In this document: piece after piece, positions 25,018 through 54,669 of the stretch
Position numbering within the stretch: the first letter of the stretch is position 1
Layout: every line of letters begins with the position of its first letter
Sequence record: CP080654.1
DNA length: 64,000 bases
Source: a plasmid
Strand: one strand, 5' to 3'
Notes under the pieces: model-generated
Told to the model about the DNA's origin: nothing
The model's input: the letters and a program-made list of their open reading frames with translations, nothing else
Database searches by the model: none
Program-made: the position numbers and the translations under genes

Positions 25018-25055
25018 GGGGTCTGACGCTCAGTGGAACGAAAACTCACGTTAAG
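25018..25055 (+). repeat. Tn3/Tn1331 38-bp terminal inverted repeat (bla end)
   Basis: GGGGTCTGACGCTCAGTGGAACGAAAACTCACGTTAAG. Confidence 0.9.
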
Positions 25056-31443: not shown

Positions 31444-31531
31444 GGTGTCATTTCGCCCTCAGCCGGAACCGACCCCTTTAAGTGATACCATTTTAAGCAG
31501 TACCACTTAAATGTTACCATCAGGACAAAAA
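31444..31531 (+). promoter_or_regulatory. Probable res site between tnpA and tnpR
   Basis: Position only; short AT-rich intergenic region. Confidence 0.3.
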
Positions 31532-32152
31532 ATGTTCGTTTTTGGTTACCTCCGGGCATCAACATCAGAGCAGGATGCCAGCCGGGCAAAAAATGCACTG
31601 AAGGCATTTGCAAACCAACATGGCCACCGTATTGCTGGCTGGTATATCGATAATGTCTCCGGTACGACAATGAACCGCCCTGAACTGATCAGGCTTCTTG
31701 GTGATGCGGAACCTGGTGATGTGATCCTCATTGAACAGGTCGACAGGCTTACTCGCCTCGATGATGCTGGCTGGGAGACACTAAGAAAGCAAATTACCGA
31801 CAAGCAGCTGGCCATCGTCAGTCTTGATCTACCGACCAGCCATCTGGCGCTATCCAGCACAGTAAGTGATGACTTTACCCGAAGCATGCTGAAGGCCGTA
31901 AATGGAATGCTGCTGGATATGCTGGCCGCTATTGCCCGAAAAGATTACGAAGATCGTCGACGTCGTCAGTCAGAGGGAATCAGTAAGGCGAAAGCTGAAG
32001 GGAAATACCGGGGCCGGGTGGCTGATGCGCAGAAACATGAACTGATACGTACCCTGCGCCTGGTCAACGGAAAATCGCTGCGCGAAACAGCTCGCCTGGC
32101 TGGCGTTTCTAAAATGACAGTGATTCGGGTCTGCTCCAGCGCTGATAAATAA
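31532..32152 (+). CDS. tnpR: Serine resolvase TnpR (Tn5403-like)
   Basis: 206 aa; N-terminal catalytic YLRASTSEQD, C-terminal HTH. Confidence 0.85.
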   Translation: MFVFGYLRASTSEQDASRAKNALKAFANQHGHRIAGWYIDNVSGTTMNRPELIRLLGDAEPGDVILIEQVDRLTRLDDAGWETLRKQITDKQLAIVSLDLPTSHLALSSTVSDDFTRSMLKAVNGMLLDMLAAIARKDYEDRRRRQSEGISKAKAEGKYRGRVADAQKHELIRTLRLVNGKSLRETARLAGVSKMTVIRVCSSADK

Positions 32153-45601: not shown

Positions 45602-46633
45602 TTGAGGCACAATAAACCATCATTCGCTGATGGTTTTTTTATGCCTGTTCAAGACGTTATTCCCCCCTATGAGCAGATGTACCTGCTAAATCAGCAGCTG
45701 ATCTGCAACGCTGACCAGTTCAAACATGCCGTTATCACAGTTGGCGGTCAGGCTGTGCAATACTGGATATCCTATTATCATGCACAATACGGCGACAGAT
45801 TGCCTGATGAGCGCCTCACCACATCTGTTGACTGCGACTACAGCGCCCGGAAAGATGATATTGCGGCTATAGCAAAAACGCTCAACGTTAAGACGTGGGA
45901 GAACAAAGACGGTCAGCCCCCATCCCTTGCGCAGTTTATGCTTATCGATCAGGATACACACGATATCAAACGGGATGATGGACGCTTATTTGCCGTACCG
46001 GATGCGCCTGACGAGCCAAATGTGGTGGATATTATCGACCGCCCCGGAGGCTTTGACCGTTCTGATTTTCAGGGGAAAAAGCTTTACCTGTATACCGCCC
46101 CGTTTTATGTAGAAGCAACCGGCCCCGGCATGCCTGAAATGAATGAAAAGGTAAGGGTATTGAACCCTGTTGCCTGTATGCGCTCGCGCTTTAGCAATCT
46201 GATTGCCTTGCGCCGTGATGCTGAAATTGAAATTGCGCGTATTAACGCGCTCAAGATCCCGTGTTATTTCTTTCTCATCGAACAGTTTGATGAACAGCCG
46301 TTCAAAGTTGCACGAGGAATCTTTATGGATTTATGGAGGCTCGCGAATGACGAAAGCTGTCTGCGCCATCAGGCCTTCTGGCATAGCTGGCAGGGGCCGC
46401 TTCTTGAAGGGCAACAAAGTAACAACATCACTCTGATTGATGTGTTGGAAGGCGTACATGTATACCTGGAAGGGCATCTTGATGACTTTGAAATACCGGA
46501 AGCCTTTGTCACCAAAGAAGTACCGCTAAAGCTCGCACAGCTGCGTGAACGCTGGGAGCGTTACGTGGTACTCAATGCTGAATGGGCAGCAAGAGGGCGC
46601 AGGGGATTTGAACGTAATCCCCGTGATGATTAG
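45602..46633 (+). CDS. Hypothetical protein with Pol-beta-superfamily nucleotidyltransferase-like motifs (start may be TTG 45602 or ATG 45641)
   Basis: ITVGGQAV...TTSVDCDY...FMLIDQD resembles hG[GS]...DxD...hDh; 9 nt after the small ORF stop. Confidence 0.45.
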   Translation: MRHNKPSFADGFFMPVQDVIPPYEQMYLLNQQLICNADQFKHAVITVGGQAVQYWISYYHAQYGDRLPDERLTTSVDCDYSARKDDIAAIAKTLNVKTWENKDGQPPSLAQFMLIDQDTHDIKRDDGRLFAVPDAPDEPNVVDIIDRPGGFDRSDFQGKKLYLYTAPFYVEATGPGMPEMNEKVRVLNPVACMRSRFSNLIALRRDAEIEIARINALKIPCYFFLIEQFDEQPFKVARGIFMDLWRLANDESCLRHQAFWHSWQGPLLEGQQSNNITLIDVLEGVHVYLEGHLDDFEIPEAFVTKEVPLKLAQLRERWERYVVLNAEWAARGRRGFERNPRDD

Positions 46634-46689
46634 CCTCCTTTGGGCTGAAAAATTTGCGCATGTGCAAATCACCGGAGCACACGCTAATA

Positions 46690-46821
46690 GGCCGTTCAGA
46701 AGGTGAGCGTCAGGCCACTCTGAAAATTGACCGCACCATGCTGCAGAACGGCATTGACCGCAATACCGTCATGAAAATGACCGGTCTGACTGAAGACGAC
46801 CTGGCGCAGATCCGCCACTAA
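46690..46821 (+). pseudogene. C-terminal remnant of an Rpn/YhgA-like (transposase_31) gene, truncated by a Tn3-family IR
   Basis: ...EGERQATLKIDRTMLQNGIDRNTVMKMTGLTEDDLAQIRH* ; no upstream start. Confidence 0.35.
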
Positions 46822-46823
46822 TC

Positions 46824-46861
46824 GGGGGCTGATGCTCAGTCGAACGAAAACTCACGTTAGG
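46824..46861 (+). repeat. Orphan Tn3-family 38-bp terminal inverted repeat (34/38 identical to the Tn3 IR)
   Basis: GGGGGCTGATGCTCAGTCGAACGAAAACTCACGTTAGG. Confidence 0.7.
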
Positions 46862-46872
46862 CGAGAGAAGTC

Positions 46873-46990
46873 GTCTGAAAAATCGATTAATGGACAATGG
46901 TGTCCATTAAGTGCCATTTGCCGATTAAAAACACACCGCTTTAGGCACATTTTTCACTGTCCACAATATTCTGATTTATCGGACAAAAAG
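46873..46990. promoter_or_regulatory. Serine-resolvase res-like site (two palindromic subsites) with no resolvase gene
   Basis: TTAATGGACAATGGTGTCCATTAA (46873-46896) and TGTCCACAATATTCTGATTTATCGGACA (46952-46979), the latter resembling gamma-delta/Tn3 res site I. Confidence 0.55.
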
Positions 46991-47029
46991 TCCTTAACGT
47001 GTGAAACCGTTCCGTTGAGCGTCAAACCC

Positions 47030-47641
47030 CTAATCCCCCTTTCCTGGCACTCCCTGTCCGGCCATCAGCGTAAACAGGTGGGGCAGGGAGGTATTCCTTT
47101 CAGGCGCTGCCAGCCAGCCACAGCGGCTGAACAGCGGCATCAGGTCTGCCACATTCCCGGTCAGACGCGTCAGCAGCGGATTTATCTGTCGGCCATTGTC
47201 GTCAAAGGCCGCATCGAGGTGAGTCCGGGAGAGATAAATGCCGTTCACGCCGGCATTCAGGGTGACGGCATACCGGCCGGCCCATTCCCTGTCGTTCAGC
47301 AGGCGGTAGTTCCAGAGCATATCCTTCGCAGTTTCCAGGGCATACGTCAGCCGGAACAGGTCGTTCTGTTCAGACAGCTCGCCGGAGCAGGAGCGCCAGA
47401 GGTAATCCATTTTTTCGGGCAGTCTGGCCTTGATGCCATGCCGTCGCCCCTGAGCCAGCAGCCAGCTGATGTCCTGCGAGACCTCCCGCGGAAAACGCCG
47501 CTGCTTCAGGGCCGTGGCCAGCCAGCGGGTGAGAAAGAGGTTTGCCTGAGCAGCCGACCGGACGCCGCCGTCCTGCCGGGCCAGCGCCAGGGCAATCAGG
47601 CCGCACCAGGCAAGGTGCCCGGACTTATTCAGTTTCGTCAT
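47030..47641 (-). CDS. Hypothetical protein (203 aa), second gene of the FinO-paralog operon
   Basis: GGGAGA SD 8 nt upstream of MTKLNKSG; overlaps upstream gene by 17 nt. Confidence 0.45.
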   Translation of the reverse strand: MTKLNKSGHLAWCGLIALALARQDGGVRSAAQANLFLTRWLATALKQRRFPREVSQDISWLLAQGRRHGIKARLPEKMDYLWRSCSGELSEQNDLFRLTYALETAKDMLWNYRLLNDREWAGRYAVTLNAGVNGIYLSRTHLDAAFDDNGRQINPLLTRLTGNVADLMPLFSRCGWLAAPERNTSLPHLFTLMAGQGVPGKGD

Positions 47642-48188
47642 GGTTTTTTTTCTCCCTGGCCGCCCGGGAGAGGTCCATTTTCGCCCTGATTCGGGAGACC
47701 TGGAGGCGGGCATACTCCGCCTCCGGCGCGGTTACCGTGCCCACGGGCTCACCGTGAATGTCATAGCGGGGGGTTCCTTCCTTCAGGCAGCGCTGGTACT
47801 CAATGCGGCTGGTAACAGTCCGGATGGCCTGTATCCACGTCCCGAATGTCATGCCGCAGTCAGGATGCGCATCGATGTACGCCTTCACCTGCTCTTTAAT
47901 CCCCACCTTCATGGGCCGGAATTTCCCCTTCTCAAACTCCGGCCACAGTGCCGGAAAGGTTCTGGCAAAGAGCGCCATTCTGTCGCGGCTTTTCTGCGCA
48001 TGCCGGTTCCGTTTATCCGGAGAGCGGGCCGTCGTGTTTTTCGCATCCGGGGTATCAGGCGCGGCAAGAGCCGCCGGGGCTCCGGTGGTTATCTCCCGGA
48101 GAGGGGGGGCAGGATGTGTCTGTCCGGATTCAGGGTCTTTCAGACGTGATTTTCTGACCACAATCACAGGGGCTTTTTTCTCGGTCAT
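47625..48188 (-). CDS. ProQ/FinO-domain RNA chaperone paralog (FopA-like), distinct from tra finO
   Basis: MTEKKAPVIVVRKSR... N-terminus parallels FinO MTEQKRPVLTLKRK; C-terminal FinO-domain similarity to the finO at 54076. Confidence 0.65.
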   Translation of the reverse strand: MTEKKAPVIVVRKSRLKDPESGQTHPAPPLREITTGAPAALAAPDTPDAKNTTARSPDKRNRHAQKSRDRMALFARTFPALWPEFEKGKFRPMKVGIKEQVKAYIDAHPDCGMTFGTWIQAIRTVTSRIEYQRCLKEGTPRYDIHGEPVGTVTAPEAEYARLQVSRIRAKMDLSRAAREKKNHDETE

Positions 48189-49149
48189 AAGGGACTCCGG
48201 GGGCAGTGTTGTCACCGTCTGATTATATCATAATACCATGTTTCTGTTACGAATTATGTATCCGGAATGTCTTGTTTTTCGGGTTTTCAGATGCGCGGTG
48301 TACGAAACTATCAGGCTGTCGGTTTGTGGTTTTGCTTACTTTCGGACACACAGGCGGCATGGTGTACGTAATCGCTCGATTTCGGACACAGAAACGCTGT
48401 AGCCCCGCAATCCGAGGGTTCGCTAATAGCCGTCTGGTCAAAAAGTAGTCTTAGCGTAAGTTATTTTCCCTTTTCCAGGCGGCCCCCTGATGCGCGTAGC
48501 GCATGGGAGCGAAGCGATACGACCGCGCAGTATTGCGCGGGGTTTTTCTTTTCCGGCTCAGAAGTGAGTGAATCACTTAAGTCAAATGACCAGAAGCAGG
48601 TTAATACGGTAGTTCACCCCCCCTTCCTGCCAGACAATAGCGGATTGTCAGTGTCACAGGAGGTTCTGTACGCGGTCGGAGTGGTCACGACAAGGCGCAG
48701 CCGCCGTCGGGGCGTATCTCCGCGTTAGCGGGCCGTGAGGGCCGCTTACGAGCGTGTTACTCAATACTTACAGCGACACTACTTACCGCGACGCACAACT
48801 ATAGTTACAACACCCATCATTAAAAGCGACACTACTCCCGGCCTTCGGCCGGGGGCGGCGGCGCTTTTCAGTGGTGGGGAGGGGCACCTGGCTGGCAAAC
48901 CGGCGCCGGTTTTATGACGGATTTCCTTTTGAATGCTGTAACTAATGTGGTTCTCCGGTCGGGGCCCGTCGCGAAGCGATGGGAGCTCTCTCTGGTGTTG
49001 CCGAACCGTCGCGACCGTCAGGTCGCTGCAAGGGCGGGGATTCTCCGCAGCCTGTCCACAGGGCAGGCGATGAACAGGTTATTTGTTTACAGGATTTATT
49101 AAAGGATCTTTAAAAGAGGTACAGAGCTGGTGTTTAAAAGGAACCACGC

Positions 49150-49406: not shown

Positions 49407-50264
49407 TTATAGGGGGGCAGTGGCCAGCCGCGTGTAGTTGTTTCCGCGCGACAGCAGCATGCGCTCCTGCACACGGCGCTCAACCTCACGCTTCAGCGCT
49501 TCTTTATCGCCCCTGAAGCGGCCGGTGGCGTATTCGCGGGTCAGTTGCTGACGCACGCGCGTCTCGATGTCATGACGCTGCCGTGATGCATCCCGCCGTG
49601 CAGTATCCCGCTTCCGGCCGTGAGATTTACGCTCAGCCTGATAGCTGCGAAAACGCTCACGCACGAACCGCCACGCTTTTGCGATCAGCTCGTCCATCTC
49701 CAGCGGTTTCAGTTTCTGCTTTTTGCGCTGCAGGTTTTCCCACTCCACACGGCTGCGGCGCGCGGCCACCACAGCCACCTCAGAAACGTCAAGCGCGGAA
49801 AACAGAGCCGGGGTGAAGGTGATATCGGTCGGGATGTTACAGCCGATCTGCGGGTCATATTCCGTCTGATAGGTGATGAGCCCCAGCTCCGCCAAAAACT
49901 TCAGCGCCCGCGTGGCACGGCTGACTGACAGGTTGCCGCTCCTTGACTCGGTGGCCAGTCCACACTCGATGGCCATATTGGTAATCGAGCGCTGCACGCG
50001 ATTGGCCAGCGGATCATAGTGAAAACACATTGCCTGCAGTAGCGCGTCAATTGCACGCCGGCGCAACAGTGGTGGCATCCTGTGCCGCTTACCCAGCGAA
50101 CGCAAAAACGCCACATGAATGGAAAAATCAAAACGGGACGTGAAGCCTTCGGCTTTCGCCATCAGCTTACGGCAGAACGGCAGGGTCTTTTTCCCTTCTC
50201 GCGGCGTGAAAACCGGGTTCGGGTTTTTAACCTGTGAATAGTGGTTTTGAAGGATATCAGTCAC
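49407..50264 (-). CDS. repA1: IncFII replication initiator RepA1
   Basis: 285 aa [24 protein letters not shown]... near-collinear with R100 RepA1. Confidence 0.95.
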
Positions 50265-54075: not shown

Positions 54076-54669
54076 TTAAAGGGTCTGACTCATCTTTCGT
54101 TCAGCTCGCAGCAGCTCCTTCATCATGCGCTCACTGGCGTACTGCGCTTCCTCTGCAGTGACGGTCGCAACGGCATTCCCCTGCAGATCATAGCGGGAGG
54201 CCCCCACCTTCATCCGGGACAGATAGCCCGCAGACCGGGTCAGACTCTTCAGGCACTTAATGACCTGTTTATGCGACAGCGGCAGGTCGCGGTTCACAAT
54301 GTCGGCAAACAGCTGCTCGCGCATTCCCGTCGCCAGCAGACGGGGTGAGTTTCCGTCGAACAGCTGTGGCCAGAATGCCTTCAGGGTCATGATGGCCTGT
54401 TCCGGCGGCAGCAGGCGAAGATAACGCACCGGAGGTGGCGTCTTTACCGCTTTATCCGGCGCCGGCGCAGCGTTGCGCGCGTCGGCTTCGGCCGCTTGTT
54501 TAGCCTTCTCAAGTTTCGCTTTCTTTGCCTTCCAGGCTGGCGGGGACGAGACCACCACGACCTTCTTTCGGCGCACCACACCAGGAGCAGGGGTTGCCTC
54601 TGCGGGGGCCGTGCTGTTCTCCGCCGGTTTTCGTTTCAGGCTCAGTACAGGGCGTTTTTCTTCTGCCAT
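54076..54669 (-). CDS. finO: Fertility inhibition protein FinO
   Basis: MAEEKRPVLSLKRK... FinO family; position after traX. Confidence 0.9.
   Translation of the reverse strand: MAEEKRPVLSLKRKPAENSTAPAEATPAPGVVRRKKVVVVSSPPAWKAKKAKLEKAKQAAEADARNAAPAPDKAVKTPPPVRYLRLLPPEQAIMTLKAFWPQLFDGNSPRLLATGMREQLFADIVNRDLPLSHKQVIKCLKSLTRSAGYLSRMKVGASRYDLQGNAVATVTAEEAQYASERMMKELLRAERKMSQTL

What the first reader, a model, noticed from the sequence alone, without database searches (positions are those of the whole stretch)
46690..48215. Orphan Tn3-family IR plus resolvase res site with no tnpR/tnpA, abutting an operon encoding a second FinO/ProQ-domain protein
A 38-bp IR, 34/38 identical to the Tn3 IR, truncates an Rpn-like gene. 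It is followed within 12 bp by two palindromes, one of them a 28-bp TGTCC-N18-GGACA element resembling res site I. No resolvase or transposase follows. Instead there is a minus-strand operon with a FinO paralog (MTEKKAPV...) and a 203-aa unknown protein. The plasmid therefore encodes two FinO-domain RNA chaperones. The isolated res site may be a relic of res-targeted recombination or a TIME-like element.
Basis: partly seen in the sequence, partly recalled or inferred. Interest (0 to 1): 0.55.

Follow-up and report, generated by a model that had tools for sequence, protein, structure and literature searches.

The report
Complete miniature Tn3-type transposon in pKpQIL
The "orphan" transposon end is one end of a complete 207-bp gene-less hitch-hiking transposon, a relative of IS101 made of two ends plus a resolution site, and an identical copy has fused two carbapenem-resistance plasmids in clinical Klebsiella.

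Summary
The window is plasmid pKpQIL. The 38-bp Tn3-like IR at 46824-46861 is real (34/38 to the Tn3 IR) but not orphan. Its partner lies inverted at 46993-47030, and both are flanked by a 5-bp duplication, TAATC. Related plasmids hold the uninterrupted target. So 46824-47030 is a complete 207-bp Tn3-derived miniature element (TIME), collinear with IS101 at 68% identity.

Its interior is a full three-subsite res with Tn3/gamma-delta architecture.

The element did not truncate the Rpn gene. It landed in the overlapping stop codons of the convergent Rpn and DUF2913 genes and regenerated both. Rpn lost its 5' part in a separate event.

About 377 PLSDB plasmids carry relatives. In a K. pneumoniae IncN+R KPC plasmid, two direct identical copies bracket a whole IncR plasmid, with a GTATT duplication in an IncN gene. 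This is the signature of an unresolved replicative-transposition cointegrate.

The second FinO/ProQ-domain protein is confirmed. It belongs to the plasmid backbone and is unrelated to the element.

Verdict: a new, apparently unnamed member of a known kind. Interest is moderate.

The parts
46824..47030 (+). Complete 207-bp non-autonomous Tn3-family miniature element (TIME, IS101-like): IR, res (III-II-I), IR
   Evidence: Collinear over its full length with IS101 (68%) and with copies in pMT1 (90%), Buttiauxella (86%) and Pantoea (76%) in unrelated contexts. Empty sites are in L009-L011.
46819..46823 (.). Left copy of the 5-bp target-site duplication TAATC. It contains the TAA stop of the Rpn remnant.
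46824..46861 (+). Left 38-bp terminal inverted repeat, on the res site III side
   Evidence: 34/38 to the Tn3 IR, 26/38 to the gamma-delta IR, 14-16/38 to the Tn4401 IRs
46872..46896 (+). res site III, 25 bp: CGTCTGAAAAATCGATTAATGGACA
   Evidence: Aligns with site III of Tn3/gamma-delta res and has the same length. Mean column conservation in the family is 0.91, against 0.78 for spacers.
46901..46935 (+). res site II, 35 bp: TGTCCATTAAGTGCCATTTGCCGATTAAAAACACA, 4 bp from site III
   Evidence: Aligns with the 34-bp site II of gamma-delta/Tn3
46958..46985 (+). res site I (crossover site), 28 bp: TGTCCACAATATTCTGATTTATCGGACA. It lies 22 bp from site II. The central dinucleotide is CT/AG, not AT.
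   Evidence: Aligns with the 28-bp site I of Tn3/gamma-delta. The 22-bp I-II spacer matches theirs.
46993..47030 (-). Right 38-bp terminal inverted repeat (reverse complement GGGGTTTGACGCTCAACGGAACGGTTTCACACGTTAAG), on the site I side
   Evidence: 30/38 to the Tn3 IR and 26/38 to the left IR. In PLSDB it is found only as part of this element.
47031..47035 (.). Right copy of the target-site duplication TAATC. With C47030 it forms the TAG stop of the DUF2913 gene on the minus strand.
46654..46821 (+). Context: 3' remnant of an Rpn-family gene (the last ~41 codons are recognisable). It is truncated at the 5' side, not by the element.
   Evidence: TIGR01784 positions 233-273/273, E=7.5e-9. Intact Rpn genes end at the same TAATC in L010 and L011.
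47030..47641 (-). Context: DUF2913 gene (203 aa), convergent with Rpn. The stops overlapped by 4 bp before the insertion.
   Evidence: PF11140 E=1.9e-16. It is 74% identical to the L010 homologue, which overlaps an intact Rpn gene.
47625..48188 (-). Context: ProQ/FinO-domain protein (187 aa), overlapping the DUF2913 start by 17 bp
   Evidence: PF04352 E=6e-17. 33% identical to the plasmid's FinO, E=2e-14. A profile hits FinO, RocC and ProQ structures. It scores below the NCBIfam cut-offs for both FinO and ProQ.
25018..25055 (+). Other Tn3-type IR in the window (Tn1331 end next to blaTEM-1), inverted relative to the element's right IR
   Evidence: 38/38 to the Tn3 IR

Best explanation
Positions 46824-47030 are a complete 207-bp non-autonomous transposon of the Tn3 family (a TIME). 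It is a sister lineage of IS101 and consists of little more than two 38-bp Tn3-type terminal inverted repeats and a full three-subsite res.

Shown: it arrived by transposition into the 4-bp overlap of the stop codons of the convergent Rpn and DUF2913 genes. It duplicated TAATC, and the duplication regenerated both stop codons, so no coding sequence was changed.

Inferred mechanism: a Tn3/Tn1/Tn2-type TnpA supplied in trans binds the IRs and drives replicative transposition. This joins donor and target replicons into a cointegrate with one copy at each junction. A Tn3/gamma-delta-type serine resolvase acting on the two internal res sites, or RecA, can then separate them.

Shown by structure: an identical copy made exactly such a cointegrate, an IncR KPC plasmid fused into an IncN conjugative plasmid. 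That cointegrate has stayed unresolved although an intact Tn3-type TnpR is encoded on it. This suggests, by inference, that this res is a poor substrate for Tn3 resolvase, as reported for IS101.

The neighbouring FinO/ProQ-DUF2913 operon is plasmid backbone and not part of the element.
For: - Two IRs and a 5/5 TSD.
- Uninterrupted target ...CCGCCACTAATCCCCCTTTCC... in L009, L010 and L011; 716 of the plasmid records matched span at least 80% of the reconstructed 600-nt empty site, many as a single uninterrupted alignment.
- Full-length collinearity with IS101. IS101 is mobilised by Tn1000 transposase and has a working res (PMC13367494, PMC4133298).
- The interior aligns subsite by subsite with Tn3 and gamma-delta res: 28/35/25 bp with spacers of 22 and 4 bp.
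- Subsites and IRs are better conserved than spacers across 13 family members: 0.88-0.91 against 0.78.
- Independent insertions exist: pLAO76 with TSD ACATA, and pMT1, Buttiauxella, Pantoea, Salmonella, K. michiganensis and metagenome copies.
- Cointegrate in NZ_AP024786.1: two direct 100%-identical copies at 31521-31727 and 108481-108687, with outer flanks GTATT/GTATT.
- The reconstituted IncN target is 100% contiguous in the listed IncN-type records, and 929 matched records span at least 80% of it.
- The IncR plasmid CP020500.1 has one copy with the same inner flanks, TAATC and TATCC.
- The IRs are closest to the Tn3 IR (34 and 30 of 38) and unlike the Tn4401 IRs (10-16 of 38).
- An intact Tn3-type TnpR (98% identical) and a canonical Tn3 res are present on the unresolved cointegrate.
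Against: - No transposase has been shown to act on these IRs.
- The two IRs match each other at only 26/38, and the right IR differs from Tn3 in the inner TnpA-binding part.
- No autonomous transposon with the same right IR was found in PLSDB.
- Several copies lack a perfect TSD: pMT1 has 4/5, and Buttiauxella, Pantoea, Salmonella and K. michiganensis have none. Many copies may therefore be old or rearranged.
- res function is untested, and the persistence of the cointegrate next to a Tn3 TnpR argues against efficient resolution.
- The site I conservation figure is inflated, because some family members were retrieved with a pattern that lies in site I.
Confidence: 0.92

Rival explanations
1. 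One reading: an orphan left end (IR plus res) of a decayed Tn3/Tn21-type transposon whose tnpR and tnpA were lost, or a relic of res-targeted recombination.
For: No tnpR or tnpA follows the IR and res. One-ended relics of this element do exist elsewhere, for example upstream of spvR in Salmonella virulence plasmids (L007) and in L033, L056 and L103.
Against: A partner IR lies 131 bp away, with a perfect 5-bp TSD and exact empty sites. The same 207-bp unit, with the same boundaries, recurs in unrelated plasmids.
Confidence: 0.02
2. The site is the plasmid's own multimer-resolution site, serving a backbone resolvase. An example would be the Tn5403-type recombinase, which in ancestral plasmids sits just upstream of Rpn. 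The IR-like ends would then be incidental.
For: In ancestral arrangements a serine recombinase gene lies about 1.4 kb upstream: L010 has recombinase, then Rpn, then DUF2913. pMT1 has the element within 1.4 kb of an 84%-identical recombinase.
Against: Backbones with that recombinase lack the element (L010). The DNA upstream of those recombinase genes carries conserved GATACC/GTTACC repeats, not TGTCY half-sites. That recombinase is only 33% identical to Tn3 TnpR. The element's half-sites and spacing copy Tn3/gamma-delta res.
Confidence: 0.03
3. The element is a complete TIME but an inert fossil in pKpQIL. The IncN+R structure would have arisen by transposition of a pre-existing composite (TIME-COMP), or by homologous recombination between copies already present on both plasmids, not by a fresh cointegrate.
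For: Only one copy is in the window, and no Tn3-type tnpA is in the window. The IRs are imperfect. Composite structures bounded by this family do occur (L134).
Against: The listed IncN relatives have the intact target without any copy, so homologous recombination has no partner there. The GTATT duplication demands a transposase-made staggered cut. The insert equals a whole circular IncR plasmid opened at its single copy. That is the cointegrate prediction. Composite transposition would also need the element's IRs to be active.
Confidence: 0.08

Closest known systems
IS101 of pSC101 (209 bp; TIME-IS101)
   Same: Same architecture base for base: 38-bp Tn3-family IRs, an interior that is a res, no ORF, nearly the same length (207 against 209 bp) and 5-bp TSDs. 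The two are collinear without large gaps. IS101 is known to be mobilised by Tn1000 TnpA and to carry a res that works poorly with Tn3/Tn1000 resolvases (PMC4133298, PMC13367494).
   Different: Only 68% identical. Its IRs are Tn3-like (34 and 30 of 38), whereas those of IS101 are gamma-delta-like (33 and 31 of 38). The central dinucleotide of site I differs: AG here, GA in IS101 and AA in the pMT1 copy, all read on the strand used. BLAST searches seeded with IS101 would probably miss it at stringent settings.
res of Tn3 and gamma-delta (Tn1000)
   Same: Three subsites in the same order. Site I is 28 bp, the spacer is 22 bp, site II is about 34 bp and site III is 25 bp. The TGTCY-type half-sites are the same.
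   Different: Site II is 35 bp with a 4-bp II-III spacer, against 34 bp and 5 bp. The crossover dinucleotide is not the AT of Tn3/gamma-delta, so recombination with a genuine Tn3 res should be unproductive (inference from serine-recombinase chemistry). There are no flanking tnpA or tnpR genes.
TIME244, IMU, MITESen1 and TIME1-4 (other TIMEs)
   Same: All are non-autonomous Tn3-family miniature elements found mainly on Enterobacteriaceae plasmids. They can bound composite or cointegrate structures that carry resistance genes, including blaKPC-2 (PMC13367494).
   Different: Their sequences are unrelated. TIME244 and IMU derive from the Tn21 subgroup. MITESen1 has no recognisable res.
FopA (IncI1 pCol1B9) and PcnR (IncI2), for the neighbouring gene only
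   Same: All are plasmid-encoded FinO-domain proteins additional to, or other than, FinO. FopA and PcnR control the replication of their own plasmids (PMC9977716). The pKpQIL protein lies 1.2 kb from the IncFII repA.
   Different: No RNA partner is known. The pairing with DUF2913 is not universal: in L010 a different gene occupies that position.

Membership tests
TIME (Tn3-derived inverted-repeat miniature element) | Terminal inverted repeats of about 38 bp related to Tn3-family IRs, starting with GGGG | tested here: met
   The left IR is 34/38 and the right IR 30/38 to the Tn3 IR. Both start with GGGG.
TIME (Tn3-derived inverted-repeat miniature element) | Short (50-500 bp) with no transposase gene | tested here: met
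   The element is 207 bp. IRs and res subsites take up 164 bp of it.
TIME (Tn3-derived inverted-repeat miniature element) | 5-bp (occasionally 6-bp) target-site duplication, with an identifiable empty site | tested here: met
   TAATC/TAATC in the window, with empty sites in L009-L011. ACATA/ACATA in pLAO76. GTATT/GTATT around the IncN+R cointegrate.
TIME (Tn3-derived inverted-repeat miniature element) | Mobilised in trans by a Tn3-family transposase | not testable with these tools
   The evidence is only indirect: several independent insertion sites and a cointegrate signature. The acting transposase is unknown.
IS101 (as the same element or an isoform) | Near-identity to the 209-bp IS101 sequence, with gamma-delta-type IRs | tested here: not met
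   It is 68.4% identical, and its IRs are closer to Tn3 than to gamma-delta. It is a sister lineage, not IS101.
Tn3/gamma-delta-type res site | Three resolvase-dimer subsites (I of 28 bp, II of about 34 bp, III of 25 bp) with I-II spacing of 22 bp and II-III spacing of about 5 bp | tested here: met
   The subsites are 28, 35 and 25 bp with spacers of 22 and 4 bp, aligned to res taken from real Tn3 (L012) and Tn1000 (F plasmid, L013) copies.
Tn3/gamma-delta-type res site | Recombined by a cognate serine resolvase | not testable with these tools
   The indirect evidence is negative. Two direct copies stay unrecombined on a plasmid that encodes an intact Tn3-type TnpR.
Orphan or truncated end of an autonomous Tn3-family transposon | A single IR without a partner or a TSD | tested here: not met
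   The partner IR and the TSD are present.
FinO/ProQ family (neighbouring gene 47625-48188) | FinO/ProQ domain (PF04352) above the gathering threshold | tested here: met
   62 bits against a cut-off of 27, E=6e-17, covering model positions 11-107 of 109. A profile hits 1dvo, 7rgt and 5nb9.
FinO/ProQ family (neighbouring gene 47625-48188) | FinO-domain fold in a predicted structure | tested here: inconclusive
   The model has mean pLDDT 60, and 70-84 within the domain. All top Foldseek PDB hits are FinO-domain proteins (RocC, FinO, NMB1681), but TM-scores are only 0.25-0.44 and rmsd is about 11 A.
FinO proper / ProQ proper | Score above the NCBIfam cut-off of the FinO model (a subfamily model) or the ProQ model (an equivalog) | tested here: not met
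   36.6 bits against 136 for FinO, and 44.3 bits against 127 for ProQ. It is a separate FinO-domain lineage.

The most novel reading that the evidence does not exclude
This Tn3-IR branch of the IS101 family may be an active but resolution-defective 'plasmid glue' in clinical Enterobacterales. It would be mobilised by the ubiquitous blaTEM transposons (Tn1/Tn2/Tn3) and make cointegrates that Tn3 resolvase cannot undo, because its res has diverged (non-AT crossover dinucleotide, altered site II). That would stably fuse non-conjugative resistance plasmids to conjugative ones. It may also prefer the resolvase-Rpn-DUF2913 neighbourhood of F-like plasmids.
Probability: 0.25. Interest if true: 0.6.

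Novelty: new member of a known kind. Interest (0 to 1): 0.4.

Why it matters
pKpQIL is the archetypal blaKPC plasmid of K. pneumoniae ST258, and this element is unannotated in every record inspected. Three points follow.

- It corrects the map of that region: the element is a clean insertion between two convergent genes, not a scar.
- It explains how a published IncN+R KPC-2 plasmid family arose. The authors described that family as novel and gave no fusion mechanism (PMC8565517). A whole IncR plasmid was fused into the IncN nuc/PLD gene through this element.
- It extends the recently surveyed set of enterobacterial TIMEs (IS101, TIME244, MITESen1, IMU). This lineage is about 68% identical to IS101, so searches seeded with IS101 probably miss it. 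It occurs in about 377 PLSDB plasmids, including Y. pestis pMT1.

In practice, annotation pipelines should look for it at plasmid-fusion junctions.

Tried and rejected
- I searched for a parent autonomous transposon with the same right IR. In PLSDB the right end occurs only within the same 377 element-bearing records, never next to an annotated tnpA. In the metagenome scan, 15 of the 16 loci are full-length or contig-truncated copies; L135 retains only the right IR and about 8 bp inside it, in mid-contig. No parent was found.
- The genome-collection scan used a 17-base pattern that was too short for 596 Gb, so most of the 107 hits were chance. Only Enterobacterales hits were real: Y. pestis, Pantoea, Serratia symbiotica, Cedecea, Izhakiella and three others.
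- I tested whether the Tn5403-like TnpR could be the cognate resolvase and rejected it on divergence and on different upstream repeats.
- I tested whether Tn4401 could mobilise the element and rejected it, because the IRs are unrelated.
- I tested whether the Tn1331 IR at 25018 and the element's right IR moved the 22 kb between them as a unit. They share no TSD.
- I tested whether the gene upstream of DUF2913 is always a FinO-domain gene. It is not.
- I tested whether the pMT1 ORF beside the element is a DUF2913 fragment. There is no similarity.
- Literature searches for 'IS101-like', for pKpQIL with MITE, and for pMT1 with Tn3 found no description of this element.
- Structure prediction of the FinO paralog gave only a mediocre model.
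Full report
**Identity of the window.** Positions 46400-48500 are 100% identical to many pKpQIL-type IncFII(K) plasmids. One of them is NZ_MT809694.1, at the same coordinates. Its annotation gives the following map:
- Tn4401 with blaKPC at about 35.3-45.2 kb
- two hypothetical genes
- a DUF2913 gene (47030-47641, minus strand)
- a ProQ/FinO-family gene (47625-48188, minus strand)
- the IncFII repA (49407-50264, minus strand)
- finO (54076-54669, minus strand)
- a Tn5403-family tnpA and a 206-aa recombinase at 28.5-32.2 kb
- a Tn1331 remnant with blaTEM-1

**The observation.** The 38-mer at 46824-46861 is unique in the window, with none expected by chance. It matches the Tn3 IR at 34/38. I read that IR from a real Tn3-family copy (L012) and from the Tn1331 end at 25018-25055. 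Both palindromes are present. No resolvase or transposase gene follows.

Reading on, the reverse complement of 46993-47030 is GGGGTTTGACGCTCAACGGAACGGTTTCACACGTTAAG. This is a second Tn3-type IR (30/38 to Tn3, 26/38 to the left IR). Both IRs are flanked by TAATC, at 46819-46823 and 47031-47035.

A BLAST of 46815-47030 found the same unit, starting and ending at exactly these IRs, in unrelated contexts:
- Y. pestis pMT1 (90% identical)
- a Buttiauxella plasmid (86%)
- Pantoea megaplasmids (76%)

I rebuilt the putative empty site by removing the element and one TAATC. Of the plasmid records matched, 716 span at least 80% of that query, many of them as one uninterrupted alignment. L009, L010 and L011 read ...ATCCGCCACTAATCCCCCTTTCCTGGCAC... 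without interruption. So 46824-47030 is a discrete 207-bp insertion made by a transposase that cuts with a 5-bp stagger.

**What it is.** The element aligns over its whole length with IS101, the 209-bp element of pSC101. I took that sequence from Table S2 of PMC13367494, and an identical copy sits next to tet(C) in pRAS3 (L006). Identity is 68%.

IS101 is the classical Tn3-derived miniature element. It has no transposase, is mobilised by Tn1000 TnpA, and carries a res that works, poorly, with Tn3 and Tn1000 resolvases (PMC4133298 and PMC13367494).

I aligned the interior with the tnpA-tnpR intergenic regions of a Tn3 copy (L012) and of Tn1000 on F (L013). All three res subsites are present in order:
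- site I, 28 bp, 46958-46985
- a 22-bp spacer
- site II, 35 bp, 46901-46935
- a 4-bp spacer
- site III, 25 bp, 46872-46896

Only 10 bp separate the left IR from site III, and 7 bp separate site I from the right IR. The element is essentially ends plus res.

Across 13 family members, IR and subsite columns are better conserved (0.88-0.91) than spacer columns (0.78). One caveat applies: some members were retrieved with a pattern that lies inside site I.

The central dinucleotide of site I is AG on the strand used. It is AT in Tn3 and gamma-delta, GA in IS101 and AA in pMT1.

**Effect on neighbours.** The 55-aa ORF at 46654-46821 is the extreme C-terminus of an Rpn-family protein (TIGR01784 positions 233-273 of 273). 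In plasmids with intact Rpn genes (L010, L011), the gene ends at the same TAATC and overlaps the convergent DUF2913 gene by 4 bp.

The insertion fell in that overlap, and the duplication regenerated both stop codons. The IR therefore truncates nothing. Homology to intact Rpn genes starts near 46690, so the gene lost its 5' part in a separate event. That event is also seen in L009, which lacks the element.

As RNA the element folds into a long hairpin (-69.7 kcal/mol, z = -4.8). It could act as a terminator between the convergent genes, but that is only inference.

**Who moves it, and who resolves it.** The IRs are closest to Tn3 (34 and 30 of 38). They are less close to gamma-delta (26 and 26) and unrelated to Tn4401 (10-16). 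The likely mobiliser is therefore a Tn1/Tn2/Tn3-type TnpA. This is inference. None is intact in the window, and no autonomous element with the same right IR exists in PLSDB.

The Tn5403-type recombinase is not a likely partner for the res:
- It is only 33% identical to Tn3 TnpR.
- It is 84% identical to the pMT1 backbone recombinase.
- Its upstream region carries GATACC/GTTACC repeats rather than TGTCY half-sites.

**Distribution.** In PLSDB, 377 records match at E<=1e-25:
- Klebsiella, 220 (mostly the pKpQIL insertion)
- Yersinia, 63
- Pantoea, 27
- Escherichia, 22
- Salmonella, 20

Species-representative genomes and metagenomes add Serratia symbiotica, Cedecea, Izhakiella and others. A second perfect TSD, ACATA, flanks the copy in the 3.6-kb ColRNAI plasmid pLAO76. 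Other copies have imperfect TSDs or none.

**Evidence of recent activity.** K. pneumoniae TUM12137 plasmid 'IncN-R' (NZ_AP024786.1) holds two copies, each 100% identical to the window's, in direct orientation at 31521-31727 and 108481-108687.
- In element orientation, one copy reads pKpQIL-type flank, TAATC, element, GTATT, IncN. The other reads IncN, GTATT, element, TATCC...
- Joining the two IncN flanks through a single GTATT gives a sequence that is 100% contiguous inside a phospholipase-D-family gene in the listed IncN-type records; 929 matched records span at least 80% of it.
- The IncR plasmid CP020500.1 has a single copy flanked by TAATC and TATCC.

The about 77 kb between the copies is therefore a whole IncR plasmid opened at its element. 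This is the textbook product of replicative transposition, a cointegrate.

The paper describing these plasmids reports the IncN+R hybrid in 15 isolates from one patient. It calls the structure novel and does not mention the element (PMC8565517).

The hybrid encodes an intact Tn3-type TnpR (98% identical) with a canonical Tn3 res, yet the two direct copies persist. This suggests that Tn3 resolvase handles this res poorly. It remains an inference, because selection for the conjugative hybrid could also keep it.

**The FinO part.** The 187-aa protein is a FinO-domain protein on the following evidence:
- It matches PF04352 at 62 bits, against a cut-off of 27.
- It is 33% identical to the plasmid's FinO over 102 residues.
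- A family profile hits FinO, RocC and ProQ structures. The FinO hit is partly by construction, because FinO was in the profile.
- It falls below the NCBIfam cut-offs for both FinO and ProQ, so it is a separate lineage.

The AlphaFold model is mediocre (pLDDT 60). Its best PDB matches are all FinO-domain proteins, but TM-scores are low. The fold test is therefore consistent with a FinO domain but weak.

So the plasmid does encode two FinO-domain proteins, and RefSeq already annotates this. Plasmid FinO-domain proteins that control replication are known (FopA and PcnR; PMC9977716). A similar role next to the IncFII replicon is an untested idea.

The operon is backbone. DUF2913 homologues sit at empty sites, and the upstream partner gene differs in L010.

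**Verdict.** The sequence features are real and the res call is right. 'Orphan' and 'truncates Rpn' are wrong. The object is a complete IS101-like TIME with Tn3-type ends. It appears to be unnamed in the literature I could search, though I could not consult ISfinder or TnCentral. It is a new member of a known kind, of moderate interest, made more relevant by the cointegrate evidence in KPC plasmids.

Noticed in passing
NZ_AP024786.1 31521-31727 and 108481-108687 (loci L124, L125, L127); donor-type plasmid CP020500.1 (L128 3366-3572): Two direct identical copies of the element bracket a whole IncR KPC plasmid inside the IncN PLD/nuc gene, with a GTATT duplication. This is an unresolved cointegrate. 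It explains the origin of the published IncN+R KPC-2 plasmids, whose authors did not note the element.
   Followed up: yes
L134 224-422 and 2579-2780 (metagenome contig Ga0308167_1019805): Two direct copies of a relative (80-84% identical) flank Hcp, a Tlde1-domain protein and a 192-aa ORF. This looks like a composite (TIME-COMP) carrying a type VI secretion effector cassette. The outer flanks are AGATA and AGATG, matching at 4 of 5.
   Followed up: partly
L007 4001-4057 (Salmonella virulence plasmids, between spvR and an IS630-family element): A 54-57-bp relic of this element (part of the left IR plus the start of site III, about 90% identical) sits upstream of spvR. Many of the 552 Salmonella plasmid records matched show this same 57-bp match.
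   Followed up: partly
window 31532-32152; L002 7535-8155; L010 1139-1771: The 'Tn5403-family' 206-aa recombinase is 84% identical to the backbone recombinase of Y. pestis pMT1. In ancestral plasmids that recombinase sits next to parAB and upstream of Rpn and DUF2913. The upstream regions share GATACC/GTTACC repeats, probably this recombinase's own res.
   Followed up: partly
window 46824-47030; L002 6001-6207; L135 11706-11751: Copies or relics of the element lie at three different positions within the same resolvase-Rpn-DUF2913 neighbourhood in different plasmids. Whether this reflects regional target preference or shared ancestry is unexplained.
   Followed up: no
window 25018-25055 and 46993-47030: The Tn1331 IR next to blaTEM-1 and the element's right IR are inverted Tn3-type ends. 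They enclose 22 kb that holds blaTEM-1, blaOXA-9, the Tn5403 remnant and Tn4401/blaKPC, so the stretch is a potential mobilisable unit. No shared TSD is present, so there is no evidence that it has moved.
   Followed up: partly
window 47625-48188 and 49407-50264: A FinO-domain protein of a lineage distinct from FinO and ProQ lies 1.2 kb downstream of the IncFII repA/ori and is translationally coupled to a DUF2913 gene. A copy-number role like that of FopA or PcnR is conceivable but untested.
   Followed up: partly
window 46654-46821: The Rpn remnant keeps only the last ~41 residues of the family model, preceded by a possible TTG start. From memory, Rpn genes are reported to encode small C-terminal antitoxin-like products, so the remnant might still be expressed. 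This was not tested.
   Followed up: no
window 45641-46633: A 330-aa conserved hypothetical protein (WP_001145103.1) has no Pfam or NCBIfam match. It travels with the Rpn remnant and Tn4401 flank in pKpQIL, IncR and IncFIB plasmids.
   Followed up: no
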